The translations under genes and the position numbers were made by a program. A model generated the notes under the pieces. It saw only the letters and a list, made by a program, of their open reading frames with translations. It made no database searches and had not been told where the DNA came from. Below are positions 2,934 to 51,556 of a DNA stretch of 64,000 nucleotides, one piece after another. The DNA is taken from positions 10,525 to 74,524 of the forward strand of contig JAPPAR010000011.1 of assembly GCA_026705445.1 (NCBI GenBank), given 5' to 3'. How positions within the stretch are numbered: position 1 is the first letter of the stretch; the number at the start of each line of letters is the position of its first letter. This DNA comes from Candidatus Dadabacteria bacterium (GTDB taxonomy: Bacteria > Desulfobacterota_D > UBA1144 > Nemesobacterales > Nemesobacteraceae).

Positions 2934-4172
2934 ATGTCACATTCTTATTTCCGCTGGCAGCGGGACACCTTGAAAAAAGCCCTCGAAACGCGCCGCGTGC
3001 TGTTGCTCTGCGGAGCGCGCCAATGCGGCAAAACCACCCTTGCCAAGGAACTGGTTTCACGGCATATCGCCTACCGCACTCTAGATGATCCGGCCGTACG
3101 GCAGATTGCCGAAACCGACCCGCGAGGCTTCGTGAAGCATTCGGGAAGCACCCTCATCATTGACGAAGTCCAGCGTGCTCCCGACCTGCTTTCCGCAATC
3201 AAGATAAGGGTGGATGAAGATACGAGACCAGGACAATACCTGCTGACGGGTTCAGCCGACATACAGTCTTCCCCCGGAGTACGGGAATCCCTCGCCGGAC
3301 GCATAAGAAAGGTACGGCTGCGTCCGCTCACCCATGGAGAGATTTTAGGAGCGTCTCCGGATTTCCTTGACCGGGCCTTCAGGCAGGATTTCGGGCATCC
3401 CGACCACGCTTACGACCGTGACGCTATGCTGGACATCTCTTTTGGAGGTGGTTTTCCAGAAGCCATTATGCTTGGAGACACAGAGCGAAGATTATGGCAT
3501 CGGGACTACGCGGACGCGCTTGTGGAACGCGACCTCAGGGATCTCGGGCGTATCCAGCGACGCGACGCCATGAGCGAACTGATACACACCCTGGCGGCAT
3601 GGTCGGGCAAGTTCATGGACATTTCATCCATAGGCGCTGGACTTTCCATCGCGCGCTCCACGGTCGAGACATACATAAACGCCCTAGAAGCCTTGTACAT
3701 TGTCGAACGCGTAAGGGCGTGGAAACGCACCGATTACGCGCGGGCGGGGCAACGCCCCAGGCTTTTTATGACTGACTCGGGACTCATGTCTTCGATTCTT
3801 GACTGGGACAGGCAGCAGGTCCGAATGGATGCGGACCGCTCGGGCAAGCTGATCGAAACCTTCATGTTCAACGAAATAGCCGCCCAAGTGGACGCCAATG
3901 CCGGAAGATACAGTCTCTTCCATTACCGTGACCGCGAAAAGCGCGAGATCGACTTCTTGATCGAAAGGGAGGACTGGGCGCTGCTCGGGATTGAGATCAA
4001 GGCGGGCTCGGCCATCGGAACGAACGATTTCAGAAACCTCAGCTGGTTTAAGAAAAACATCGCGCGCGACAGAAAATTTACCGGGGTCGTACTCTATTCG
4101 GGAGAACTCGCGGGTTCCATGGGTGACGGGCTGTGGGCTGTTCCTTTCGGAACAGTCTGGAACCGGCAGTAA
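2934..4172 (+). CDS. AAA+ ATPase, DUF4143 (AAA_14) family
   Basis: 412-aa ORF with Walker A GARQCGKTTLAKE and a Walker B-like LIIDEVQ. The C-terminal part is typical of the DUF4143 ATPase family. Confidence 0.8.
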   Translation: MSHSYFRWQRDTLKKALETRRVLLLCGARQCGKTTLAKELVSRHIAYRTLDDPAVRQIAETDPRGFVKHSGSTLIIDEVQRAPDLLSAIKIRVDEDTRPGQYLLTGSADIQSSPGVRESLAGRIRKVRLRPLTHGEILGASPDFLDRAFRQDFGHPDHAYDRDAMLDISFGGGFPEAIMLGDTERRLWHRDYADALVERDLRDLGRIQRRDAMSELIHTLAAWSGKFMDISSIGAGLSIARSTVETYINALEALYIVERVRAWKRTDYARAGQRPRLFMTDSGLMSSILDWDRQQVRMDADRSGKLIETFMFNEIAAQVDANAGRYSLFHYRDREKREIDFLIEREDWALLGIEIKAGSAIGTNDFRNLSWFKKNIARDRKFTGVVLYSGELAGSMGDGLWAVPFGTVWNRQ

Positions 4173-40041: not shown

Positions 40042-42828
40042 TCAGATTGATAGCGGCGTTGTTTTCGGCAACATCTTTTTTTTCTCCGAGAACCTCTTCC
40101 TTATATCAATTACGGCTTGAGTGATCTCTGCGGGCAGGGATTCGAGTTCCTCTCCCGTTTCCGCCCGCACCGCGTGCCAGAGCGGTTCCATGGTTTCAGT
40201 CAGGGCAGGATGGCTTTCCATTATCTGCATGACCTGCTGGCTCCAGCCGGCCGCCGCGAGATTGATCAGGGATTCCGTCAGACCATGCGTGTTCCAGCAC
40301 TGTTGGCCGACGGCGACGGAAAGCGCTCGGTCAAGTTTTTCCAGGGCTGCCATCCAGTTCCCGCAGCGGGCCAGTACATCGGAGACCGCATGAAACGCGG
40401 CAGGGTCTTCCGGCATCAGCTCCGCTGCGCGGCAAGCGTAGCGTTTCGCTTCTTCCAGGCGCGCAGCCTCGTCACCCCCGAGAATCGCTTCCGCCCTGAC
40501 GCGCCAGGCCTCGCCACACTCGGGGTCAAGCTCCACTGCTTTTTTGCAGCCCGATTCCGAGTCGTCATAATATCCCAGCGAGTTGGCAATATTGCTCTTG
40601 GTGGCCAGCAGTCTGGCGAATTTCCGACGCGTATCCACCGGGTCATCCACATAAACATATTCTGAAAACCGGTCGCAGGAAATGATCCAGTCTTCAAACC
40701 GCCCCAGTTCCAAGTACGCCGTGTCCAGAGCGAACAACGCCAGACCGGCACCGTAACGTAATGTTATCGAGTCATCGGTACGAACATATTGAGTGAAATT
40801 TTCCAAAATGGACACAGCTTCATCATAACGCTTTTGTGCGACAAGAGCGTTTCCTCTCTCGGCAAGCGTCTTGAGAAATGTCAGGCGTAACAATTCCGGA
40901 TCTTCCGGACAGACATATTGCGAGACCTGCCGCCAGATCGCGAGAGCTTCTTCATGATGATCCGCTTCCAAGAGAAGTTTGCCATGAACCCGAATCAACT
41001 CAGTAGCTACATAGCGCAGGGGATGCGGGTCATCCTGGTTTACAAGTTCCCAAATTTTTGCAATAACGCTTAAGACATCGCCAGAATTTTCCAAGGCGAG
41101 AAGGACTCCAGCCTCCCCCGTCAGAGCTCCAAGCGCGCAAATCTGCAATTGTGCGGGGTCATCGGGACCGACAGCCTCGGTTACATGCCTGAACGCATCG
41201 AGGGCATCCTCAAAATGCCTTCTTCCCCTTAGTGCCGAGCCAAGAAGAACCCAAGCAAAAAGATTATCCGGTTCTCGCCTGATTGCCCCTCTGCACTCGG
41301 TTTCCGCCTCCACGAAGCGTTCAGATTGGAGTAGTTCGATGCCGCGACAGACCTTATCCGAAAAACAATCCAAACCTAGCTGGTAGTGCCGGGAAAGGTC
41401 CCGCACTATTTCGCCAAATGCTGACACGTTCGCGCCGATAGAATTGATTATCAGGCTAAAGGCCTTCTTCATCCAGTCTTCGCGTTCCGCGAAATCACTG
41501 TCGTTCGCCGCATAGGGGATCAGGGCTCCAAGCAGTTCAGGCGCCTCTTCATCCTTAGAGACCCCGCTGCTTAACTTCTCAAGAGTCGCCAGATACATCG
41601 ACCGCATCGGAACCGGGCCGAACAGATCGTTGAGGAAGTCTACCAGCAGCTTCAGGCGTCGATATCCCCGCCGCGAGAAACGCAGCAGGAAGTAGATGTT
41701 GTAGAACCGGTCGGCAACCTCGTACCGGATACGCTTTTCCCTCTCTGGCCGCGCTTCCCTGGCGTATCCCTTGTCCACCAGCTGCTTGAGCTGGGCGCTT
41801 GTGTGAGATGAGGAAAGCCTGGCCGCGGCGGATACTTCCTTCGCGAGCATGGGACTCCATCCCTCCGCAAGGCAATGAAACACCTTTCGGGACTGTGTCG
41901 GCAGCTCCTCAATGCGGGACTTGAAGTACGGAGTCTGTTCGTCGATCAGCTGTTCTAGATCCTTGAACGCGGAACCGAGCGGCGACTCAACCAGAATTCC
42001 GTAGGTCAGCACCAGCAGCCGCGGGTTTCCTCCGGTCAGGCGGCGCATGGTCTCGATTCGCCCGCGTTCGCGGCTCAGTGTCTCGGCAATTTTAGTTTTG
42101 CATTCACGTTCTGCGAGGGCCCGGAAGATCTGAAGATACTCTTCGCGCCCAAGACCTTCCAGAAGAAAAACCCGGAAAAACTCGTAGAACGGTTCGCCGC
42201 GGTGCTGTATGGCCTCAAAGACGGCGTTTGCGGAACCGATCAGCAGTATCTCCGGATGTTCGATCAACGCGGCCCGCAAAGCGTGGACTTCGCGCTCATC
42301 ACCCAGTTGTGAGAAAACGATGTCAAGATTTTCGACAAACAGAATCAGCCTCTTTCCGCTTTCTCGGGAGAAATCAATAAGAACCGAGAGCGCGTACGCG
42401 GCAAGGCGCTGCGGATCCTTCTCGTCGGCCGAAAGCGCTTCTGCCTTGTCCTCCCATCGGGAATCCCGAGTGGCGCGGGTCAGGTGATGCAGGGCCGTAA
42501 GCCAGAAATCCGCCAGGTCGGTCACCTGATAGCTTTCCTCGTGAAACGCCACGGGCTGCCATGCTTCTGCAAGATCGGGCGTTTCGCGTACCGCCTGGAG
42601 AAACCGCAGACCGAGGGTGGTTTTGCCCATCCCCCGCGAACCGACAAGCAGCATGTGCTGGCACGGTCGGTCGGTTTTCTGCTCGTCCAAGAGGCGAAGC
42701 ATCTCAGTGAGGGTCTCCTGACGGGCGACGAAGGAAGCCTTGAGTTCTTCCGGGGAGAGTTGGGCCGGGTTGTAGATACGTCTTTGCTTCATGGCTCCAT
42801 CCCCCCTGACCGGTTTTTCCGCCACCAC
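40042..42828 (-). CDS. ORC/Cdc6-like AAA ATPase (Arch_ATPase type) with a winged helix and a long C-terminal TPR array; STAND-like NTPase
   Basis: Walker A LLVGSRGMGKTTL, Walker B RLILFVENLD, winged-helix segment, then ~450 aa of TPR-like repeats. 928 aa. Overlaps the upstream ATPase gene by 40 nt. Confidence 0.75.
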   Translation of the reverse strand: MVAEKPVRGDGAMKQRRIYNPAQLSPEELKASFVARQETLTEMLRLLDEQKTDRPCQHMLLVGSRGMGKTTLGLRFLQAVRETPDLAEAWQPVAFHEESYQVTDLADFWLTALHHLTRATRDSRWEDKAEALSADEKDPQRLAAYALSVLIDFSRESGKRLILFVENLDIVFSQLGDEREVHALRAALIEHPEILLIGSANAVFEAIQHRGEPFYEFFRVFLLEGLGREEYLQIFRALAERECKTKIAETLSRERGRIETMRRLTGGNPRLLVLTYGILVESPLGSAFKDLEQLIDEQTPYFKSRIEELPTQSRKVFHCLAEGWSPMLAKEVSAAARLSSSHTSAQLKQLVDKGYAREARPEREKRIRYEVADRFYNIYFLLRFSRRGYRRLKLLVDFLNDLFGPVPMRSMYLATLEKLSSGVSKDEEAPELLGALIPYAANDSDFAEREDWMKKAFSLIINSIGANVSAFGEIVRDLSRHYQLGLDCFSDKVCRGIELLQSERFVEAETECRGAIRREPDNLFAWVLLGSALRGRRHFEDALDAFRHVTEAVGPDDPAQLQICALGALTGEAGVLLALENSGDVLSVIAKIWELVNQDDPHPLRYVATELIRVHGKLLLEADHHEEALAIWRQVSQYVCPEDPELLRLTFLKTLAERGNALVAQKRYDEAVSILENFTQYVRTDDSITLRYGAGLALFALDTAYLELGRFEDWIISCDRFSEYVYVDDPVDTRRKFARLLATKSNIANSLGYYDDSESGCKKAVELDPECGEAWRVRAEAILGGDEAARLEEAKRYACRAAELMPEDPAAFHAVSDVLARCGNWMAALEKLDRALSVAVGQQCWNTHGLTESLINLAAAGWSQQVMQIMESHPALTETMEPLWHAVRAETGEELESLPAEITQAVIDIRKRFSEKKKMLPKTTPLSI

Positions 42829-44000
42829 TCCCTAAGCAGGTTCGATCTGAAACACACATGGGAGCCATCCCGCCGCACGTACCCGTCCGATTCCAGATTG
42901 CGAAGCGCCGAGAGAAGCTCGCTTTCGCCCTGCCGGGTCAGTTTCTCAATATCCGAGATGCGCGCACCGTCTCTCCGCCGACAGGCGTGATTGAGTATGT
43001 CGTGCGCCGCTTCCTGCTCGTCTGCGTCAAGCATGATTTCCAAGCGGGCTGCGTAATGGTCAAGATGAGGCGTGCCGCCAGGTCCCGTAAGCCTTTCCGT
43101 GAAGCATCGCTCTATTGCACTTTCGGAAACGCGCGAGGGGTCCCCATTGCAGGATTGGCGAAGGGTCGAAAAAAACAGTTGCAGGTGATAGGGAACCGGA
43201 TCCGAGAGGAGGTCGAGAATTTGTGAGACGCTACGTTCGTCCATGCGGAAGCCATAACTGTCTCCAAGCTCCTCCAGAAACTTAACTGCGACATCCCGGT
43301 CCCATGAATCCAGCTGGAAAGGGGCCAGATCGTTTATTAATCCCGAAAGAGCAAAGCGTCTGAGAACGCCTTCAAGCCCGATGGACCCGCCGATCAGTGT
43401 GCACACCTTCCCGCGCATCTGCGGAGACTGGCGCCAGCGCCGGAGCCCGGACAGCAGCAACTCGACATCATGTTTTCCCTCGAGGGTTTTCAGCATGCGC
43501 GAGACGAGTATCGGAAACTCGTCGAGGATGATCAGGAGGCTGCGACCGGGATCCGGCAGACTCTCAAGACGTTCAAGAAGCTGATCCGCTGTACGTTTCC
43601 AGTCCCGGCCGATCGCCCTTTTGAGTTCAATGCGGACTTTTTCGATGCTGACGGAAACTTCGGAAAAGGAAAATGTGCTCTTGAGCGTGTCTACTACGGT
43701 CTTTGCGAACGGAATTTTTTCGATGCCTCGGCGGTACTCCGGGTTCACCGCCAGAGCGGCGACAATTGCCGCCAAGCAATCCGCCGAATCTTCGGCACCT
43801 TCAACATCCACATAAAAGACATCCCAGTTTTCCCGAGGTTCGCGACGAAGTTCCAACATGAGGCTGGTCTTCCCGACCCGTCGCGGGGCAAGCATCAGAA
43901 CATGCTCTCCCTGCTCCAGTTTTTCCCATAGCAGTTCCAGTTCGGATTCTCGTCCGTAGAGGTCTTCGCCGATTACCGCCTGTCCTGTAATGTTTTGCAT
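42789..44000 (-). CDS. ORC/Cdc6-like AAA ATPase (Arch_ATPase + DUF234-like winged-helix C-terminus)
   Basis: Walker A LMLAPRRVGKTSL, Walker B LLIILDEFP. 403 aa. First gene of a two-gene operon with the ATPase-TPR gene. Confidence 0.75.
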   Translation of the reverse strand: MQNITGQAVIGEDLYGRESELELLWEKLEQGEHVLMLAPRRVGKTSLMLELRREPRENWDVFYVDVEGAEDSADCLAAIVAALAVNPEYRRGIEKIPFAKTVVDTLKSTFSFSEVSVSIEKVRIELKRAIGRDWKRTADQLLERLESLPDPGRSLLIILDEFPILVSRMLKTLEGKHDVELLLSGLRRWRQSPQMRGKVCTLIGGSIGLEGVLRRFALSGLINDLAPFQLDSWDRDVAVKFLEELGDSYGFRMDERSVSQILDLLSDPVPYHLQLFFSTLRQSCNGDPSRVSESAIERCFTERLTGPGGTPHLDHYAARLEIMLDADEQEAAHDILNHACRRRDGARISDIEKLTRQGESELLSALRNLESDGYVRRDGSHVCFRSNLLREWWRKNRSGGMEP

Positions 44001-44349: not shown

Positions 44350-44730
44350 CGCGCCCTTTTCCTTATTATATATAAGAGCTCAGACTCCCCTTTCCTCAAG
44401 GCCCGGGGGAAGTTCCCCGTAATAGGGAGAGTCCTCCTCGTACATCTCAAGGACCTTATCCTTCGGCATGTCGCACATATCTTCCGTGAAACCGAACATC
44501 CTGCATATGTGGCGAAGCTCCTCCTCCCTTCCCGGAAGCGGGTCCATGGGCTGTATCAGTTTCTCCCCCTCAAGCTCCTTCCGCACGTCCTGGTTCTCGG
44601 CAAGCGGAGTTCCGTACTCGTTTGAGTGATAGAGCCTGTCGAACCTCTTCCTCGGTCTCTGGCCGGGATCCTCGGCCGGGTATCCCACCGTCATGAGCCA
44701 GATGGGAACTATGTTCTCGGGGGTCCCGAG
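44350..44730. repeat. ~380-bp direct repeat, copy B (within the intact nitroreductase gene and its downstream region)
   Basis: See 39591..39968. Confidence 0.8.
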
Positions 44731-45317: not shown

Positions 45318-46082
45318 CTAAAGAGTGGTCCAGCCCCCGTCTATAACGAGATCGGAGCCCGTAACGTACCGGGCCTCGTCCGAAGCTAGGTAAAGCACCG
45401 AGTGGGCCACCTCCTCCGCCTCGGCCCTTCTCACAAGGGGAATCATGTCGGCCGCTATCGCGTCGAGCTGCTCCTCCGCGTCAGGAGGGTTCCCCATGAA
45501 CTCGGGGTCCATCTTGGTCTTTATGTAGCCGGGACAGACGGAGTTAGTCCTTATGTTGTCTTTCGCGTGATCAAGGGCCATGCTTCTCGTTATTTGCCTC
45601 ACGGCTCCCTTGGAAGCGTTGTACGCAACGCAGCCCTCCATCCCCACGATGCCGAGCACGCTTGAGTTGTTGATTATGGAACCCCCGCCGTGCTTTGCCA
45701 TGAGCGGAACCACGTACTTGCTTACGAGAAAAACCCCCTTCACGTTTATGTCGATCGTGCGGTCCCAGACCTCGTTAGAGGTCGTTACCACCGTGCCGCC
45801 CTCAAGGATCCCGGCGTTGTTAAACAGTATGTCGACCCTTCCGAAATCTCCGTAGAAGGCCTCTACCACCCTCCTTACGTCATCTTCCTTGGAAACGTCC
45901 CCGGGATAGGCCTTTATCTCCCCGGGACCCGGGTTCTCGGCCACCACTTCGTCAAGCCGCTCCGCGGTCCTGGACATTATGCCCACGTTGGCGCCTTCTG
46001 CTGAGAACAAAAGCGCCGTAGCTTTTCCTATTCCCTCTCCCCCGCCCGTTATGAGCGCCGTTTTTCCATCAAGTCTTCCCAT
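45318..46082 (-). CDS. short-chain dehydrogenase/reductase (SDR) family oxidoreductase
   Basis: TGGGEGIGKA Rossmann motif and the YxxxK catalytic motif (YNASKGAV). Confidence 0.9.
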   Translation of the reverse strand: MGRLDGKTALITGGGEGIGKATALLFSAEGANVGIMSRTAERLDEVVAENPGPGEIKAYPGDVSKEDDVRRVVEAFYGDFGRVDILFNNAGILEGGTVVTTSNEVWDRTIDINVKGVFLVSKYVVPLMAKHGGGSIINNSSVLGIVGMEGCVAYNASKGAVRQITRSMALDHAKDNIRTNSVCPGYIKTKMDPEFMGNPPDAEEQLDAIAADMIPLVRRAEAEEVAHSVLYLASDEARYVTGSDLVIDGGWTTL

Positions 46083-46410
46083 TTTTTCCTCCTTGCTTGT
46101 GTTTTAGAGCTTCTTCTCAACCTTTATATTATATAATAGGAATTAGTTTCAAGAGCCAAAAAAAACTTTATTTTTCACCCAAGTACATTTTTCCATATCA
46201 GGTAGCGCCGTCTAATTATCCGTGTGAATTCCCGAAAACATCCAAGGAAAATCAAGAGCAGAGCAGTTTATTAAGTACGAATAAGTTATCGCGTTAGGTA
46301 TATTTTTATACGTCAACTTACCAACACTATTAAATGAGAATGCAATACGAGTGTTTGTGCTTAATGGCATAACCAAAACGATAAAACGGGAAACAACAAT
46401 CTGGATATGA

Positions 46411-47319
46411 ATGAGGTGCTGCATGGCAGAAAGCCTTCCTTTCGAGCCTGATGACTTGGACCAGAAAACCGTATCTCCCTTAAAGGAACTAGGGGCGTAT
46501 GAAGCGTTATGGGATCAAAAGGGCATGTCCTTCAAAAAAATTTCCGAAATGCACCAAGGCCGCTGGGAATCGTCTCTTTCTGATTTTGTGGACGAAGCCA
46601 TTGCCTACGAGTTTGCCGGTCGTGTTCGCAGTTTGTTCGACGAGTCTGGGATTGACAAGTTCGGCGTTTGTGTTCGTGGTACGGGAGAATACCCCAAAGG
46701 CCTCTATGACGCCGTTTATCCGGTTGAATTGCTTTATTTTCAGGGATTGTGGGGTCTGGTTTTCACAAGATCAGTTGCGGTCGTGGGTACGCGCAAGCCG
46801 TCCGAAAAGGGAGTTGCTCGTACGCGCCGCCTTGTCAGAAACTTGGTGGAAAACAATTTCACCATAGTTTCAGGGTTAGCTTCTGGAATCGACACCGTCG
46901 CACACACTACAGCGATTGAGTCTGGAGGCCGGACCATAGGAGTAATTGGCACCCCGATTTCAAAATTCTATCCAAAGGAAAATGTTGAGCTTCAGAAGAA
47001 AATAGCAAAGGAGCATTTGCTTGTAAGCCAAATTCCAGTATGCCGTTACTTGCGGCAGGGGCCGCGCGGGAATCGGCTATTCTTTCCAGAGCGTAATATA
47101 ACGATGTCCGCACTTGCCGAAGCAACTATTATTGTCGAGGCTGGCGAAACATCAGGAACTCTGGTTCAAGCTGCCGCGGCTCTTAAACAGGGAAGGAAAT
47201 TATTCATCCTTGATAATTGTTTTTGCAATTCCACTCTCACTTGGCCAAGAACTTTTCTTGAGAAAGGCGCTATAAGGGTTGCTGATTACGAAGATATAAG
47301 GAGACATCTTGGCTCTTAG
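46411..47319 (+). CDS. DprA/Smf-like (SLOG/DNA_processg_A Rossmann) domain protein
   Basis: VAVVGTRKPS...IVSGLASGIDTVAHTTAIESGGRTIGVIGTPI...IVEAGETSGTLVQAAAALKQGRKLF is the DprA-type Rossmann core. AT-rich; overlaps the next gene by 11 nt. Confidence 0.7.
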   Translation: MRCCMAESLPFEPDDLDQKTVSPLKELGAYEALWDQKGMSFKKISEMHQGRWESSLSDFVDEAIAYEFAGRVRSLFDESGIDKFGVCVRGTGEYPKGLYDAVYPVELLYFQGLWGLVFTRSVAVVGTRKPSEKGVARTRRLVRNLVENNFTIVSGLASGIDTVAHTTAIESGGRTIGVIGTPISKFYPKENVELQKKIAKEHLLVSQIPVCRYLRQGPRGNRLFFPERNITMSALAEATIIVEAGETSGTLVQAAAALKQGRKLFILDNCFCNSTLTWPRTFLEKGAIRVADYEDIRRHLGS

Positions 47320-47941
47320 GCTCTGCAAGATTGATGATCTCTTACGAAGCGATCATTTATATCTTACGGAAGATGATCATTGCTTTTTTTTTCGGGAATA
47401 TACCGCAAACAAGAGCTACGATTACGGCGAAACTAACGACCTAATTCAGAATTTTAAGAAAGAGCTAGATAAAAAAGGTACATCTCAATGGAAATACAAG
47501 GGAAAGGCAATAAACAAAATAGCGGAAGAATTTCGGGAATCGTTAAAAGCGGAATGGTTTGAGGAATACACCTTAGTTCCGATTCCACCATCAAAATCAA
47601 AAGAAGACCCACTCTATGACGATCGTATGGTTCAAATGCTTAAGATTTTTGGGCAAGGGCTTAACCTTGATATCCGTGAATTGGTCCTGCAACGCGAAAG
47701 TACCCCACCATTTCACAAAATCACCCCTCGTCCACCTTGGGAAGACCTAGTTGATAACTATTACATTGACGAAAATATCGCAAATCCTGAACCGAAAAAG
47801 ATTATTTTATTTGATGACCTTCTCACTGAAGGCGCACATTTCAAAGCTGCCCAACATGTTCTTGAGAAGAGATATCCCGGCATAATTACCAGAGGGGTTT
47901 TTATAGCACGACGAGTATATGCGGATGCCGAAGAAATTTAA
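47309..47941 (+). CDS. phosphoribosyltransferase (type I PRTase)-like protein
   Basis: PRPP-binding motif IILFDDLLTEGAHF. 210 aa, translationally coupled to the DprA-like gene. Confidence 0.7.
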   Translation: MALRLCKIDDLLRSDHLYLTEDDHCFFFREYTANKSYDYGETNDLIQNFKKELDKKGTSQWKYKGKAINKIAEEFRESLKAEWFEEYTLVPIPPSKSKEDPLYDDRMVQMLKIFGQGLNLDIRELVLQRESTPPFHKITPRPPWEDLVDNYYIDENIANPEPKKIILFDDLLTEGAHFKAAQHVLEKRYPGIITRGVFIARRVYADAEEI

Positions 47942-48088
47942 GAAAGAACTCTGAAGCAACTCATATAGAGCTATAGGTGGCTTGATTAACGTATCTGCCG
48001 TAGAAATATACGCAGGAATATAAAGTGGTTGCCTTACAGCGTTGGAGTTCGGCCGCAGGGAAATCAAGAACTATTTCTTTGGCAGGAT

Positions 48089-48134
48089 CGTATATAATAA
48101 TCCATTATGAGCAACGGGAAATCCTTTATGATAG
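48089..48134. repeat. duplicated copy of the nitrilase promoter and first 8 codons (direct repeat with 49035..49080)
   Basis: gtatataataatccattatgagcaacgggaaatcctt here and gtataataacccattatgagcaacggaaaatcctt at 49035..49080. The repeats flank the HEPN/MNT cassette. Confidence 0.75.
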
Positions 48135-48229
48135 GTGGAGTCCGGCTTCAGGTTCTTTCCGAAATCCTCCACCGCAGTCACGAGGAGCTTCGCCGGGAAG
48201 ACAGGACTTGGCAATGAAGGATCGTTTTC

Positions 48230-48652
48230 ATGATTGAATACGACAAATTTCAAAATTCCCTGAAACGCCTTGAGGAACAGTACGGAAATTACCGTGCCAT
48301 AGAGAACTCTGACCTGGATTCGATAATGTGGGAAGCTGTGGCCGAGTCGGTCATACACAGGTTTGAGGTCTGTTACGACTGCCTATGGGAGGTGCTGAGA
48401 CGCCACCTCGCAGAGGAGCTCGGCGTTCCAGATGCCCCAAACAGCCCGAAACCTGTTTTCAGACTGGCCTTTGAAAACAACCTTCTCCCCTCACCGATCG
48501 AAAAATGGCTTGATTACGCAAACAGCCGCATCAATACAAGCCATGACTATGATGAGGGAAAGGCCAGAAGATGCCTTGGAATCATAAGCAGCTTTATTGA
48601 CAATGCCACAGGTCTTTACGAAACAATGAGCGGAGAAACATGGAAACAGTAA
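48230..48652 (+). CDS. nucleotidyltransferase substrate-binding protein, HI0074 family (HEPN-like toxin of a HEPN/MNT pair)
   Basis: Family pattern (NTase_sub_bind), 140 aa, overlaps the downstream MNT gene by 13 nt. Confidence 0.7.
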   Translation: MIEYDKFQNSLKRLEEQYGNYRAIENSDLDSIMWEAVAESVIHRFEVCYDCLWEVLRRHLAEELGVPDAPNSPKPVFRLAFENNLLPSPIEKWLDYANSRINTSHDYDEGKARRCLGIISSFIDNATGLYETMSGETWKQ

Positions 48653-48957
48653 AAGCTATTGATATCTCTTCTGAGCAGCGCGGCGTTCTTCTTGCGCTGC
48701 TTAAAAAGCATCTTCCGAATACCCGCGTCTGGGTATACGGTTCCCGCGCGAGGCTTGCCGCGAAAAAGAGTTCGGACCTCGACATGGTGGTATTTGCCGG
48801 AAGCGGACAGAGAAGACAGGTCGGCGATCTTCGGGAAGCTCTTGAACAGAGCGATCTTCCGTTTCGGGTGGACCTGTTCGTGTGGGATGACATGCCGGAG
48901 AGATTCCGGGAGAAAATTGAAGGTGACCACGTAACCCTTGTTTCCCCTGACCACTAA
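48640..48957 (+). CDS. minimal nucleotidyltransferase (MNT, HI0073-like antitoxin)
   Basis: GSRARLAAKKSSDLDMVVF is the GS-x9-13-DxD nucleotidyltransferase motif. 105 aa. Confidence 0.8.
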   Translation: METVKAIDISSEQRGVLLALLKKHLPNTRVWVYGSRARLAAKKSSDLDMVVFAGSGQRRQVGDLREALEQSDLPFRVDLFVWDDMPERFREKIEGDHVTLVSPDH

Positions 48958-49034
48958 ACGCAGGCGGGAGGGTCATGCTCTGGTTCCAAAGAGAGACGCA
49001 AACTCAAAATGAATCTGCATTTTCCCTGAGTTCC

Positions 49035-49080
49035 GTTGTATAATAACCCATTATGAGCAACGGAAAATCCTTCACGGCGG
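49035..49080. repeat. native nitrilase promoter/start; second copy of the direct repeat
   Basis: See 48089..48134. Confidence 0.75.
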
Positions 49081-49958
49081 CTGCGGTGCAGGCAGCTCCC
49101 GTTTTTCTCGACAGAAAGGGCACGGTCGACAAGGTCCTCAGGCTTATAAAGGAAACAGCGGGAAACGGGGCTGAACTCGTGGTTTTCCCCGAGGCCTTCA
49201 TACCCACCTATCCCTACTGGCCGAAGGATCTCGGGTTCGGGGCCGAGAAAAAGCTCACCATGGACGCCCACGTCGAGCTACACAGAAACTCGGTCGAGGT
49301 TCCCGGGGAGGACACCAAAAGAATCGGCAATGCGGCGAAGCGGGCCAAGACCTGCGTCGTAATAGGGGTTAACGAAAAAGAGGGAGGAACCCTCTACAAC
49401 ACCATACTCTACTTCGGCAAGGACGGTTCCCTTCTCGGAAGGCACAGAAAGCTGATGTCGATTGACAGCGAGAAATGCGTATGGGCGAACGGAACCGCCG
49501 AGGACGTGAGGGTGTTTGACACCGAAATCGGGAAAATAGGGGGACTTTTCTGCTACGAGCACCACATGACCCTTGAGAAGTACGCGATGTTCACCAAGGG
49601 GGAGCAGGTGCACGTGGGTCTCTGGGGAGGACACTCGTTCGTTAAGGACACGATGGATTTCGCGAGCCGACAGTACGCGTTTGAGGGACAGGTGTTCGTC
49701 ATAATCTCAGCCGGCTTCATAGAAGAGGATATGATTCCCGACTCCTTTCCCCTGAAGGAGCATACGATCTGGGATTACCCCGGGGGAAGCGGCATAATAA
49801 ACCCCAGGGGACAGTACATAATCGGCCCCGTATACGGAAAGGAAGAGATTCTCTACGCGGAGATCGAGCTTGACCAGATAATAAGGGCAAAGACCGTAAT
49901 AGACTCCGTGGGGCATTTCTCAAGGCCGGACATATTCCGATTCGAGATAATGGAGTGA
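49053..49958 (+). CDS. carbon-nitrogen hydrolase (nitrilase/aliphatic amidase superfamily)
   Basis: Catalytic E-K-C context (FPEAF..., RKL..., GGLFCYEH). 301 aa. Confidence 0.85.
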   Translation: MSNGKSFTAAAVQAAPVFLDRKGTVDKVLRLIKETAGNGAELVVFPEAFIPTYPYWPKDLGFGAEKKLTMDAHVELHRNSVEVPGEDTKRIGNAAKRAKTCVVIGVNEKEGGTLYNTILYFGKDGSLLGRHRKLMSIDSEKCVWANGTAEDVRVFDTEIGKIGGLFCYEHHMTLEKYAMFTKGEQVHVGLWGGHSFVKDTMDFASRQYAFEGQVFVIISAGFIEEDMIPDSFPLKEHTIWDYPGGSGIINPRGQYIIGPVYGKEEILYAEIELDQIIRAKTVIDSVGHFSRPDIFRFEIME

Positions 49959-50203
49959 TGTTGCTTCGGGCAATCCGCCTTTATTTATTCAGTGATGTCC
50001 CATTCCCTGCCGACAGGCAAGGTCAAGTCCACACCCGGTGAGATAGTTACAGTACCCTTTAACGAACCGGAAATACGTGAGAAAAAACTGGATTCAGCCT
50101 CATCTTTAGGCTCGACCCGAGCGGGTTGTTTTTCTCCGTTCTCAGGTGACAGCTTGTGTCCAGACATTTCGGTAACTCCTTTACATGGTTAGTTTCTAAT
50201 GAA

Positions 50204-50842
50204 TTACGACTTAGCAAACGAAATCAGGGAATCATAGATACCAGAGTCAGCCTCACGCAGTGCCGCAATATAGCGTTCGCGGACATCTTCAGACGCAGTG
50301 AGGTCGGCACCACCGCCCCATGTGAGTTTTTCACCACCATATTTGGCAACTATTACATCGGCAAGCAAGCGCGCGTGTCGGCCGTTGCCGTTCGGAAAAA
50401 GGTGAATTTTCACTAACCGGTGATGAAAAATAACGGCCAGTTCAGCAACACCGTAGGTATTGTGTTCCAGCCAATAAGCGGCATCGTCCAGCAACTTGCG
50501 AAATTCGGTCTGGATGAGGGAATAGTTGACGCCGATGTTTTTGTCGGATTTTCGGTACTGACCTGCCCATTTCCAGACACGACCGAACATGCGCTTATGA
50601 AGGTTCAGGATAAATTTCTCCGAAAAAATATTCTGTTTCGATGCCAAAACAGATTTCCGCATTACCCATCTCCGGGCTTCAAGAATATTTTCCCGCTCGA
50701 AACGGTCCAGATCTTCACGCATTAATATGGTGGGAACGAGATGTTCCTTCTCTTCCTCGCTAAGCGGGGTCTGGCCCTCTGTATAACGATACTGAACCAT
50801 TTCAGTCCCACAGACTGATGGCAGGGTTGCGCACCAACTCAT
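50204..50842 (-). CDS. Fic/Doc-family protein ('mobile mystery protein B')
   Basis: Fic motif HLFPNGNGRHARLLADV. The true start is probably MVQYRYTEG, which overlaps the partner gene. Confidence 0.8.
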   Translation of the reverse strand: MSWCATLPSVCGTEMVQYRYTEGQTPLSEEEKEHLVPTILMREDLDRFERENILEARRWVMRKSVLASKQNIFSEKFILNLHKRMFGRVWKWAGQYRKSDKNIGVNYSLIQTEFRKLLDDAAYWLEHNTYGVAELAVIFHHRLVKIHLFPNGNGRHARLLADVIVAKYGGEKLTWGGGADLTASEDVRERYIAALREADSGIYDSLISFAKS

Positions 50843-51251
50843 CAGCGATTTGGGCGGTTTTCTCCTGCCTGTCGCCTACATCCTGCGCTTCAAGCATCAT
50901 GCTGTGGTCCACAGGATCAACGATATCACGAGCCTTTCTGAGCGCCTGCTTGCGCACGATGTTCCGCAAGGAGCCATCATTTGGAACAAAAACATAAACG
51001 AGCCTGCAATCCAATGCTTCAGCCGCCTTGCGAAGCGACCTAAGTGTAATCGCATCATTGATCTCGTTTTTCTCCAAACGAGCGGCGGATTGCTGTGTGA
51101 TTCCTATACGTTCCGCCATCTGACGAACGCTCATGCCAAGCGAGGTGCGGACAGCACGAATCCAACCGCCAGAGGGACGGTCGCAAACATTCACTCTGGA
51201 AAGGTGGTCATCCAGCGTCTGCAATTGCATATACTTAAATTTGTTTGTCAT
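50802..51251 (-). CDS. XRE-type HTH protein ('mobile mystery protein A')
   Basis: HTH (MSVRQMAERIGITQQSAARLE) and the family pattern, immediately upstream of the Fic gene. Confidence 0.75.
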   Translation of the reverse strand: MTNKFKYMQLQTLDDHLSRVNVCDRPSGGWIRAVRTSLGMSVRQMAERIGITQQSAARLEKNEINDAITLRSLRKAAEALDCRLVYVFVPNDGSLRNIVRKQALRKARDIVDPVDHSMMLEAQDVGDRQEKTAQIADELVRNPAISLWD

Positions 51252-51482
51252 ATCACAGCCTATATTCTGTAAGTAAAACCAATGTTAACAGGATAAAAGC
51301 TGTAAGTCAAGGATAAAATTACAGAATATAATCTGTGACTAGATTTAGGCTTGATTTCCCAAAGCCCTTCGACAATAACGCTGAAAAGAATATAGAAGTG
51401 GCCAAATTTCTATATTTGCAGATATGTTCTGCTTGCTAAATCCCATTTTTTACAGAAACCAAAATTGTCAAAGACGAAAAGC

Positions 51483-51556
51483 TGGCTGGGGCACTAGGAT
51501 TCGAACCTAGACTAGCGGATCCAGAGTCCGCTGTACTGCCGTTATACGATGCCCCA
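51483..51556 (-). tRNA. tRNA-Gln (anticodon CTG), CCA encoded
   Basis: Cloverleaf: acceptor TGGGGCA/TGCCCCA, anticodon loop CTCTGGA, T-arm GGTTCGAATCC. AT-rich DNA begins immediately at its 3' end. Confidence 0.85.

What the first reader, a model, noticed from the sequence alone, without database searches (positions are those of the whole stretch)
48089..49080. HEPN/MNT toxin-antitoxin cassette inserted with duplication of the nitrilase promoter and start
The -10-like TATAATAA box plus the first eight codons of the nitrilase gene (ATGAGCAACGG(A/G)AAATCCTT) occur twice, at 48089-48134 and 49035-49080. The copies are in direct orientation and bracket the HI0074/HI0073-type TA pair.

The upstream copy now heads a short 37-codon ORF ending just before the toxin gene. 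This looks like a site-specific or microhomology-mediated cassette insertion that copied ~45 bp of target.
Basis: seen in the sequence. Interest (0 to 1): 0.5.

Follow-up and report, generated by a model that had tools for sequence, protein, structure and literature searches.

The report
Old toxin-antitoxin insertion duplicating nitrilase promoter
A toxin-antitoxin gene pair sits in front of a nitrilase gene in a sponge-associated bacterium, flanked by two copies of the nitrilase promoter and start; related genomes show this is an old, inherited insertion in a spot where defence genes often land, which is fairly ordinary.

Summary
The repeat is real. A 34-nt core (48093-48126 and 49039-49072, 32/34 identical, none expected by chance) lies in direct orientation around an intact HEPN/MNT pair of the HI0074/HI0073 type.

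Of 30 related Candidatus Dadabacteria genome loci, 19 have the short-chain dehydrogenase (SDR) and nitrilase genes back to back. They are separated by 66 bp and carry one copy of the motif. This is the empty site, so "insertion with duplication" is supported.

The event is old, not recent:
- Synonymous divergence of HEPN (0.31) and MNT (0.40) matches that of nitrilase (0.35).
- Cassette and flank distances correlate (r = 0.91).
- All duplication-type loci share junction features.
- Close relatives of the cassette were found only at this locus.

The original duplication was longer, about 65-110 bp. Only the -10 box plus the first seven codons stayed conserved. The upstream copy most plausibly promotes the TA operon. 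Its 36-codon ORF is not conserved in frame.

The interval is an insertion hotspot. ShosTA, TnpB elements, an ATPase pair and others occur there in other genomes, and the window carries ShosTA plus HEPN/MNT in tandem.

I found no evidence for a dedicated site-specific cassette system. This is a new member of a known kind, of modest interest.

The parts
45318..46082 (-). Short-chain dehydrogenase (SDR). This is the conserved left flank of the variable interval.
   Evidence: Pfam adh_short_C2 E=7e-65. It is adjacent to nitrilase in the empty-site genomes.
46128..46137 (.). SDR-proximal copy of the palindromic -10 box ATTATATAAT, which reads TATAAT on both strands. It marks the left junction of the ShosTA insertion.
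   Evidence: Sequence. TATATAATA occurs 4 times in the window against 0.05 expected. In ShosTA loci homology to the ancestral intergenic region ends right after TATATAATA.
46411..47941 (+). ShosTA defence pair, made of DprA-like ShosA (46411-47319) and PRTase-like ShosT (47309-47941). It is a separate cassette inserted at the -10 box.
   Evidence: PADLOC ShosA E=2.8e-94 and ShosT E=3.5e-47. It is present alone at the same site in L019 and L063.
48089..48134 (+). Repeat copy A (core 48093-48126): the -10 box plus ATG and the first 7 nitrilase codons. It now lies upstream of the TA operon.
   Evidence: In genomes without ShosTA the same copy sits about 50 bp from the SDR start, inside the ancestral intergenic region.
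48107..48217 (+). 36-aa ORF opened by the duplicated nitrilase start. It is probably non-functional as a peptide.
   Evidence: In the orthologous cassettes the lengths are 21-42 aa (20 aa in the derivative locus L011), the frames differ relative to HEPN, and only MSNGKSF is shared.
48137..48170 (+). Conserved leader segment with an imperfect palindrome, GGAGTCCGG..TTCCGAAATCCTCC. The block TTCCGAAATCCT (48158-48169) is invariant. It is a candidate operator or RNA stem.
   Evidence: Alignment of 7 leaders. In the window the RNA fold is not better than shuffles (z=-0.35).
48230..48652 (+). HEPN toxin gene of the NTase_sub_bind / HI0074 type. It carries RINTSH (Rx4H) at residue 100.
   Evidence: Pfam PF08780 E=2.5e-22. 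PDB 1JOG E=1.1e-5. Motif. dN/dS 0.18.
48640..48957 (+). MNT antitoxin gene, a minimal nucleotidyltransferase of the HI0073 type. It carries GSX10DXD at residue 34 and overlaps HEPN by 13 nt.
   Evidence: Pfam Polbeta/NTP_transf_2. PDB 1NO5 E=2.5e-15. Motif. dN/dS 0.20.
49008..49038 (+). Right end of the cassette: a diverged second copy of the ancestral intergenic segment (-45 to -15).
   Evidence: It aligns to the ancestral CCTGC-T-run-CAA..TTCCG segment. L-R similarity of this segment is significant in 6 of 9 relatives (z 2.9-4.9). It is not significant in the window, because ShosTA replaced the upstream side of copy A.
49035..49080 (+). Repeat copy B (core 49039-49072): the working -10 box, ATG and first codons of nitrilase.
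   Evidence: TATAAT lies 8 nt before the ATG with no Shine-Dalgarno sequence, and this is conserved in all close relatives, including the outgroups L037 and L038.
49053..49958 (+). Nitrilase / CN-hydrolase. This core gene is the right flank of the variable interval.
   Evidence: Pfam PF00795 E=2.2e-53, with the domain starting at residue 8. 59 orthologous loci were found. dN/dS 0.05.

Best explanation
In an ancestor of this group of sponge-associated Candidatus Dadabacteria, a HEPN/MNT (type VII, HI0074/HI0073-like) toxin-antitoxin pair was inserted once into the 5' edge of the nitrilase gene. The pair probably derives from the kind that sits inside type I restriction-modification operons.

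The event duplicated roughly 65-110 bp. That stretch covers most of the 66-bp divergent SDR-nitrilase intergenic region, including its palindromic -10 box ATTATATAAT, plus the first codons of nitrilase. As a result both flanking core genes kept a promoter and nitrilase kept its start.

Since then the cassette has stayed at this locus:
- It co-diverged with the flanks under purifying selection.
- It was remodelled internally in some lineages.
- It is absent from many lineages. The likely causes are recombination between the two repeat copies, which restores the empty site exactly, or replacement by an empty allele through homologous recombination in the flanking genes.

The inner parts of the duplication decayed. 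The 34-46 bp seen today survived because it is functional in both places. The right copy is the apparently leaderless promoter and start of nitrilase. The left copy serves as promoter of the TA operon and, in genomes lacking ShosTA, of SDR on the other strand. The 36-codon ORF is a relic of the duplicated start codon.

In this window a second cassette, ShosTA, lies in the -10 box between SDR and copy A. The layout is therefore -10 box / ShosTA / -10 box + start / HEPN-MNT / -10 box + start / nitrilase.

Shown by the analysis: the repeat, the empty site, the common origin, the age, the selection and the hotspot. Inferred: promoter activity, leaderless translation, the way the cassette is lost, and the molecular mechanism of the founding event.
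For: - Repeat: the core is 32/34 identical, with 0 expected by chance.
- Empty site: 19 of 30 syntenic genome loci have SDR and nitrilase 66 bp apart with one motif copy, including the outgroups L035-L038.
- Position of the copies: in 8 other genome loci, and in the 3 metagenome contigs L070-L072, a second motif copy lies next to SDR and the insert lies between the copies.
- Longer duplication: L-R homology from -45 to -15 has z 2.9-4.9 in 6 of 9 genomes and reaches +67 in L034 (z=14).
- One origin: six of the seven direct HEPN/MNT loci aligned share the derived right junction CGCTGTATAATAA, and the window has CGTTGTATAATAA. L011 keeps the HEPN/MNT leader down to the HEPN start region, and L018 keeps the MNT C-terminus, although their genes were replaced.
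- Age: dS is 0.31 for HEPN, 0.40 for MNT and 0.35 for nitrilase in the same genomes. TA and flank distances correlate at r=0.91.
- Function retained: dN/dS is 0.18 and 0.20, all orthologues are intact, and the Rx4H and GSX10DXD motifs are present.
- Core constrained: L and R differ by 0.127 on average within a genome, far below dS.
- Residency: HEPN relatives of at least 78% identity were found only at this locus. The next relatives (64% or less) lie in other contexts without the motif, and in L075, the one checked by Pfam, between hsdM and hsdS.
- Stability: all 11 contigs that carry the exact ShosT also have HEPN/MNT next to it.
Against: - Presence and absence are interleaved on the flank tree. 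One gain therefore needs about ten losses or allele replacements, none of which I observed directly.
- L017 and L027 have TA genes closer to each other (0.081) than their flanks are (0.125 and 0.095), which hints at some lateral exchange.
- L034 has a different left junction (+67 instead of about +27 to +42) and a different leader. This needs either gene conversion or a second, independent insertion.
- Promoter function is only inferred. The simple sigma-70 scan did not call either TATAAT box, because the -35 matches are poor.
- No transcript data are available.
Confidence: 0.72

Rival explanations
1. The 34-bp core is an att-like site for a recombinase acting in trans (integrase, Xer-like or integron-like). 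Small promoterless cassettes are repeatedly captured and excised at the nitrilase 5' end, and each integration regenerates the core on both sides.
For: The two ends carry a nearly identical core. The flanks next to the core look element-borne: the right-end segment and the leader travel with the cassette. Several different gene sets occupy the same interval. The distribution across the tree is patchy. L034 has a different left junction.
Against: - The cassette is as old as the flanks, and close relatives occur only at this locus.
- The motif has 0 hits in viral contigs, and the window has no third full copy.
- The different contents of L011 and L018 derive from the HEPN/MNT cassette by internal replacement, not by new captures.
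- The extra genes in L024, L034 and L072 carry no additional motif copy.
- ShosTA and TnpB use other junctions inside the -10 box.
- No integrase was found among the 10 large window ORFs tested, and there are no inverted repeats at the cassette ends.
Confidence: 0.1
2. The founding event was a Campbell-type single crossover. A circular DNA carrying HEPN/MNT plus about 100 bp of homology to the SDR-nitrilase junction integrated by ordinary homologous recombination. This is a mechanistic sub-variant of the best explanation, not an alternative to the history it describes.
For: The geometry fits. The left copy is host upstream sequence joined to cassette-borne downstream sequence. The right copy is cassette-borne upstream sequence (a diverged intergenic copy) joined to the host nitrilase. 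Repeats of this length are enough for RecA-dependent recombination (established knowledge).
Against: It requires an earlier molecule that already joined the TA pair to nitrilase-upstream DNA, and no such donor context was found. The founding event is too old to leave discriminating traces.
Confidence: 0.25
3. The two copies are not a duplication. They are independent instances of a common strong promoter motif that happen to be followed by similar starts.
For: TATATAATA-type boxes recur in this genome: 4 in the window, one of them at an unrelated place, 44364-44372.
Against: Identity continues through 21 nt of coding sequence. It extends to -45 in relatives and to +67 in L034. The empty sites have exactly one copy.
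Confidence: 0.02
4. The 36-codon ORF headed by copy A is a genuine third gene, such as a leader peptide or small regulator of the TA pair.
For: The ORF is open for 36-42 codons in 5 of the 6 HEPN/MNT loci examined, and it often ends at or within a few nt of the HEPN start.
Against: The reading frame relative to HEPN differs between species (0, 1 or 2). Lengths range from 21 to 42 codons (20 in the derivative locus L011), and the peptide sequence after residue 7 is unrelated between frames. The HEPN start region ATGATTGA carries stop codons in both alternative frames, so ending there is automatic. There is no Pfam or PADLOC hit.
Confidence: 0.05

Closest known systems
HEPN/MNT type VII toxin-antitoxin pairs (H. 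influenzae HI0074/HI0073; Shewanella SO_3165/SO_3166)
   Same: There are two small adjacent, overlapping genes. The HEPN protein belongs to the NTase_sub_bind family and carries Rx4-6H. The minimal nucleotidyltransferase carries GSX10DXD. Both match the HI0074 and HI0073 structures by sequence.
   Different: The activity (RNase toxin neutralised by AMPylation) is not tested here. The pair is chromosomally fixed at one locus across a group of species and is expressed, by inference, from a duplicated host promoter.
Defence or integration hotspots between conserved core genes (as described for E. coli and Pseudomonas pan-genomes; from my own knowledge)
   Same: The core flanks (SDR and nitrilase) are the same in related genomes, but the content between them varies: nothing, HEPN/MNT, ShosTA, TnpB, an AAA_15/21 ATPase pair, or unknown genes. 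A second variable interval lies between nitrilase and tRNA-Gln.
   Different: The hotspot is a 66-bp divergent promoter region. The insertions that survive keep a copy of the -10 box on each side. No integrase or mobile-element backbone accompanies them.
Integrative elements that carry a replacement end of their target gene (phage 21 and e14 in icd, islands in the 3' ends of tRNA genes; from my own knowledge)
   Same: The insert is flanked by direct repeats made of the target gene's end. The gene is reconstituted by the element-side copy, and the displaced fragment decays.
   Different: Here it is the 5' end plus the promoter that is duplicated. The insert is only about 0.95 kb, it has no integrase, and I found no sign of current mobility.
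Integron gene cassettes
   Same: Small, mostly promoterless gene units lie downstream of a resident promoter, and TA cassettes are common cargo in integrons.
   Different: There is no attC-like imperfect palindrome, no IntI gene was found, additional cassettes carry no repeat, and all loci trace to one origin.

Membership tests
HEPN/MNT (type VII) toxin-antitoxin | HEPN-domain protein with an Rx4-6H motif | tested here: met
   PF08780 E=2.5e-22. RINTSH at residue 100. 1JOG/HI0074 E=1.1e-5.
HEPN/MNT (type VII) toxin-antitoxin | Minimal nucleotidyltransferase with a GSX10DXD motif | tested here: met
   PF18765 and PF01909. GSRARLAAKKSSDLD at residue 34. 1NO5/HI0073 E=2.5e-15.
HEPN/MNT (type VII) toxin-antitoxin | The two genes are adjacent and co-oriented in one operon | tested here: met
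   48230-48652 and 48640-48957 overlap by 13 nt. The same arrangement occurs in 7 other species-level loci.
HEPN/MNT (type VII) toxin-antitoxin | HEPN is a toxic RNase that MNT neutralises by AMPylation | not testable with these tools
   This needs expression and biochemical assays.
Integron cassette array | attC recombination site (imperfect inverted repeats) at each cassette end | tested here: not met
   No inverted repeat lies at the cassette ends. The leader fold is not better than shuffles. The extra genes in L024, L034 and L072 have no repeat copy.
Integron cassette array | Adjacent IntI tyrosine recombinase with attI and the Pc promoter | tested here: not met
   The genes adjacent to the interval are SDR, ShosTA, nitrilase, Fic and an HTH protein. 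None of the 10 large window ORFs tested is a recombinase other than one TnpB. The scan of the window was not exhaustive.
Transposon or IS insertion | Short target duplication of fixed length, terminal inverted repeats, and a transposase | tested here: not met
   The duplication is 34 nt or more, originally about 65-110 nt. There are no terminal inverted repeats, and the insert holds no transposase.
Integrase-mediated integrative element (attL/attR) | Direct repeats with an identical core flanking the insert | tested here: met
Integrase-mediated integrative element (attL/attR) | An integrase encoded by the element or nearby, and the element found in other contexts or in excised form | tested here: not met
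   The insert holds only HEPN and MNT. No close relative was found outside this locus. There are no viral hits. No excised variant appears among 11 same-strain contigs.
Core-gene-flanked defence/TA hotspot | Conserved flanking core genes with variable, often defence-related content across related genomes, including empty sites | tested here: met
   19 loci are empty and 11 are occupied among 30 genome loci, with at least 5 content types.
ShosTA defence system (neighbouring cassette) | DprA-like ShosA plus PRTase-like ShosT as a gene pair | tested here: met
   PADLOC ShosA E=2.8e-94 and ShosT E=3.5e-47. Pfam DNA_processg_A E=2.6e-54.

The most novel reading that the evidence does not exclude
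The conserved core (-10 box plus the first seven nitrilase codons) is a working recombination joint. Through a host recombinase, or through short-homology RecA recombination, cassettes would be looped out and re-captured at the nitrilase 5' end. This would make a minimal, integrase-less, promoter-supplying cassette acceptor in these sponge symbionts. It would explain the patchy presence and absence, the L017/L027 cassette similarity and the different L034 junction.
Probability: 0.08. Interest if true: 0.65.

Novelty: new member of a known kind. Interest (0 to 1): 0.3.

Why it matters
This is a clean natural example of how a tiny divergent promoter region between two core genes can accept selfish or defence cassettes without killing either neighbour. 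The insertions that survive re-create the promoter and gene start on both sides. The duplicated host promoter is then available to drive the newcomer. The repeats also give a built-in route to scarless loss, which may explain why TA and defence content differs between closely related symbiont species. The practical value is for annotating Dadabacteria MAGs: repeat-induced contig breaks, spurious small ORFs, and nitrilase start calls that differ between pipelines (290 and 301 aa).

Tried and rejected
- Same-strain contigs (L001-L010, L086-L088) are 99.8-100% identical to the window, so they say nothing about the empty site.
- L007 has a different upstream sequence, but its first 472 nt are an unrelated GC-rich sequence that matched nothing else fetched. 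I treated it as a probable chimeric assembly.
- I tested whether the TA leader beyond +27 derives from nitrilase coding sequence. It is not significant except in L034.
- I looked for an RNA structure or a known RNA family in the leader and repeats. The only Rfam hit is the tRNA, and the fold z-score is -0.35.
- The sigma-70 consensus scan does not call the TATAAT boxes, because the -35 matches are weak. It therefore gives no independent support for promoter function.
- I looked for tRNA-derived direct repeats around the Fic/HTH insert and found none.
- The motif has 0 hits in viral contigs.
- Two literature searches found nothing specific to this locus.
- I considered and rejected three readings, for the reasons given under Membership tests and Rival explanations: an integron-like array, a transposon target duplication, and a real small gene.

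Full report
**Observation**

A 34-nt core, TATAATAAYCCATTATGAGCAACGGRAAATCCTT, lies at 48093-48126 and 49039-49072 in direct orientation and is 32/34 identical. These are the only two matches in the 64-kb window at up to 3 mismatches, and none is expected in shuffled sequence. In this window similarity ends at both edges.

The start-to-start spacing is 946 bp. Between the copies lie an ORF of 36 codons plus stop (48107-48217), a 140-aa gene (48230-48652) and a 105-aa gene (48640-48957) that overlaps it by 13 nt. Seven codons (MSNGKSF) are shared with nitrilase, not eight. Independent assemblies from several samples show the same structure at 99.8-100% identity, so it is not an artefact.

**Gene content**

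- The 140-aa protein is a HEPN protein of the NTase_sub_bind family (PF08780, E=2.5e-22). It matches HI0074 (1JOG, E=1.1e-5) and has RINTSH at residue 100.
- The 105-aa protein is a minimal nucleotidyltransferase (Polbeta/NTP_transf_2). It matches HI0073 (1NO5, E=2.5e-15) and has GSX10DXD at residue 34.
- Downstream is a CN-hydrolase/nitrilase (49053-49958), whose Pfam domain begins at residue 8.
- Upstream are a ShosTA pair (46411-47941; PADLOC E=2.8e-94 and 3.5e-47) and, on the other strand, a short-chain dehydrogenase, SDR (45318-46082).
- Beyond nitrilase lie a Fic/HTH pair on the minus strand, tRNA-Gln (51483-51556, minus strand) and QueF.

**The empty site**

A scan of one genome per species found 59 nitrilase loci. 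Nearly all are in MAGs labelled Candidatus Dadabacteria or Thermodesulfobacteriota, and a few carry other labels. In 30 of them SDR is syntenic.

In 19 of those 30, SDR and nitrilase are divergent neighbours only 66 bp apart, with a single copy of the motif. The 19 include the outgroups L035-L038. The ancestral intergenic region reads:

CAT(SDR start)-...GCTTCGGGTnnnnACCCTGC-T-run-CAAGTTTC-ATTATATAAT-AACCCATT-ATGAGCAACGGAAAATCCTTTACGGCGGC

ATTATATAAT is a perfect palindrome that reads TATAAT on both strands. On the nitrilase side it ends 8 nt before the ATG and there is no Shine-Dalgarno sequence. This arrangement is conserved even in the outgroups L037 and L038. By inference the region is a back-to-back promoter pair and the nitrilase mRNA is leaderless.

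**The duplication in relatives**

Eight other genome loci (L011, L017, L018, L021, L024, L027, L034, L065) and three metagenome contigs (L070-L072) have a second motif copy. It sits next to SDR inside an otherwise ancestral intergenic region, and the insert lies between the two copies.

The duplication is longer than it appears in the window:
- The segment just upstream of the right copy (-45 to -15) is a diverged copy of the ancestral intergenic region. The similarity is significant in 6 of 9 genomes (z 2.9-4.9; alignment).
- In L034 the left copy follows the nitrilase coding sequence to +67 (z=14).
- In L021, L027 and L065 weaker homology reaches about +42 to +50.

The founding event therefore duplicated about 65-110 bp, which is nearly the whole intergenic region plus the first codons. 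In the window the upstream half of copy A is missing because ShosTA lies there.

**One old event, not repeated hopping**

- Six of the seven direct HEPN/MNT loci aligned share the derived right junction CGCTGTATAATAA, and the window has CGTTGTATAATAA. They also share a conserved leader.
- L011 carries an unrelated 168-aa membrane protein, yet it keeps the HEPN/MNT leader down to the HEPN start region and the cassette's right end.
- L018 has a ShosA-like gene in place of HEPN and the MNT N-terminus, and keeps the MNT C-terminus and right end. These are internal replacements, not new captures.
- Synonymous divergence among the same genomes is 0.31 (HEPN), 0.40 (MNT) and 0.35 (nitrilase). dN/dS is 0.18, 0.20 and 0.05.
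- Pairwise nucleotide distances of the TA pair track those of the flanks (r=0.91).
- HEPN relatives of at least 78% identity were found only at this locus. The next relatives (64% or less) lie elsewhere and carry no motif. In L075, the one checked by Pfam, the pair sits between hsdM and hsdS of a type I restriction-modification operon.
- The motif has no hit in viral contigs.
- All 11 contigs that encode the exact ShosT of this strain also have HEPN/MNT next to it.

The cassette is thus as old as the divergence of these species. It is functional and resident.

**Why the core survives**

Within a genome the two cores differ by 0.127 on average, well below the synonymous divergence between lineages that split after the duplication. 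The core is therefore constrained, or occasionally homogenised. L034's two copies share a lineage-specific GTA at codon 4, which suggests gene conversion there.

The simplest reading is functional. The right copy is the promoter and start of nitrilase. The left copy is the promoter for the TA operon and, where ShosTA is absent, for SDR through the palindrome.

The small ORF is a relic. Its frame relative to HEPN is 0, 1 or 2 in different species, its length is 21-42 codons (20 in the derivative locus L011), and only the first seven residues are shared. The HEPN start region ATGATTGA contains stops in both other frames, so termination there is automatic.

**Patchy distribution and hotspot behaviour**

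Occupied and empty loci are interleaved on the SDR+nitrilase tree. With one gain this needs about ten losses or allele replacements. Recombination between the direct repeats would restore the empty site exactly.

L063 carries ShosTA only. Its single motif copy has copy A's upstream side and its TATAATAATCC variant, followed by nitrilase sequence. This is what a window-like locus would leave after such a deletion, although insertion into an L063-like locus fits equally well. L017 and L027 have TA genes closer to each other than their flanks are, so some exchange by homologous recombination is likely.

Independent insertions also hit the same 66 bp:
- ShosTA (window, L019, L063) has junctions right after TATATAATA. 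That 9-mer is repeated at 46130-46138 and 48091-48099.
- An intact TnpB element sits there in L023, and a degraded one in L065.
- L024 has an AAA_15/AAA_21 ATPase plus a partner gene behind MNT.

These extra units carry no additional copy of the 34-nt motif. This argues against an integron-like array. Because only 66 bp separate two conserved genes, any insertion that survives must leave both genes a promoter. Survivorship alone can therefore explain why the insertions seen here are promoter-duplicating.

**Mechanism**

Sequence cannot tell how the founding event happened. The geometry fits three routes:
- a Campbell-type single crossover of a circle carrying about 100 bp of homology;
- integrase-mediated attP x attB recombination with a long shared core;
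- a repair- or replication-associated duplication around inserted DNA.

Against an active site-specific system are the age, the single origin, the absence of other contexts, the variable left junction, the lack of inverted repeats and the absence of a recombinase among the neighbours and the 10 large window ORFs tested, other than one TnpB (not exhaustive). I give that reading about 0.1.

**Comparison with known systems**

- The pair meets the sequence-level criteria of HEPN/MNT type VII TA systems. Its activity is untested.
- The locus behaves like the core-gene-flanked defence hotspots described in other bacteria (my own knowledge).
- The duplicated gene end recalls integrative elements that carry a replacement end of their target gene, such as phage 21 and e14 in icd (my own knowledge). 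Here, however, it is the 5' end plus the promoter, on a 0.95-kb insert without an integrase.
- It fails the integron and transposon membership tests.

**Verdict**

This is an old, inherited TA insertion with a decayed promoter-and-start duplication in a promoter-region hotspot, not a recent site-specific hop. I rate it a new member of a known kind, with interest about 0.3.

Noticed in passing
window 46128-48099 (ShosTA 46411-47941); L019, L063: A ShosTA defence pair lies inside the palindromic -10 box between SDR and copy A. It is flanked by the 9-mer TATATAATA (46130-46138 and 48091-48099). In the ShosTA-bearing genomes the 45 nt next to SDR are much more diverged from the ancestral intergenic region than in the other genomes.
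   Followed up: partly
window 49959-51556 (Fic 50204-50842, HTH 50802-51251, tRNA-Gln 51483-51556, all on the minus strand): There is a second variable interval between the nitrilase stop and the 3' end of tRNA-Gln. It holds a Fic/HTH pair here and in some relatives, other content or several kb in others, and only about 40-90 bp in L013, L015, L020 and L063. I found no tRNA-derived direct repeat in the window.
   Followed up: partly
L023 5716-6957 (minus strand); L065 5750-6950; window 37896-39062: An intact IS605-family TnpB (OrfB_IS605 plus Cas12f1-like TNB domains) is inserted at the same -10 box in L023, and a degraded copy is there in L065. The window carries its own TnpB elsewhere, 27% identical to the L023 protein.
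   Followed up: partly
window 48137-48170; leaders of L017, L021, L024, L027, L070, L072: The TA leader holds a conserved imperfect palindrome (GGTTTCGG-N7-CCGAAATCC in relatives) with the invariant block TTCCGAAATCCT at 48158-48169. It may be an operator for TA autoregulation. The RNA fold in the window is not better than shuffles.
   Followed up: partly
L073-L083 (checked by Pfam in L075: 2322-3998 and 4780-6087): The next-closest HEPN/MNT relatives (50-64% identity) mostly follow a coding sequence that ends just before HEPN. In L075 that gene is hsdM and the gene after MNT is hsdS, so the pair lies inside a type I restriction-modification operon. This is a likely ancestral context for the cassette.
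   Followed up: partly
L024 4506-6481; L011 6199-6705; L034 6286-6900: Other cargo occurs in the same interval in relatives: an AAA_15/AAA_21 ATPase with a 199-aa partner (defence-like), a 168-aa membrane protein, and a 204-aa putative lipoprotein. The last three proteins have no Pfam hit.
   Followed up: no
L007 1-472: One metagenome contig joins the ShosT C-terminal half to an unrelated GC-rich sequence. It is probably a chimeric assembly.
   Followed up: yes
window 27577-33603; 33989-34813; 2934-4172; 40042-44000: Several other features were not examined beyond single hits. There is a 2008-aa ORF. A HicB-like antitoxin protein is encoded at 33989-34813. An AAA_14/DUF4143 ATPase is at 2934-4172. 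An AAA_16/TPR protein (916 aa as called in L003) with a 403-aa partner lies upstream of the nitroreductase gene next to SDR.
   Followed up: no
L003/L004/L086 against L001/L087 gene calls for nitrilase: Different pipelines call the same nitrilase as 290 aa (internal start) or 301 aa. Conservation of the ATG 8 nt after TATAAT, and a Pfam domain that starts at residue 8, favour the 301-aa start at 49053.
   Followed up: yes
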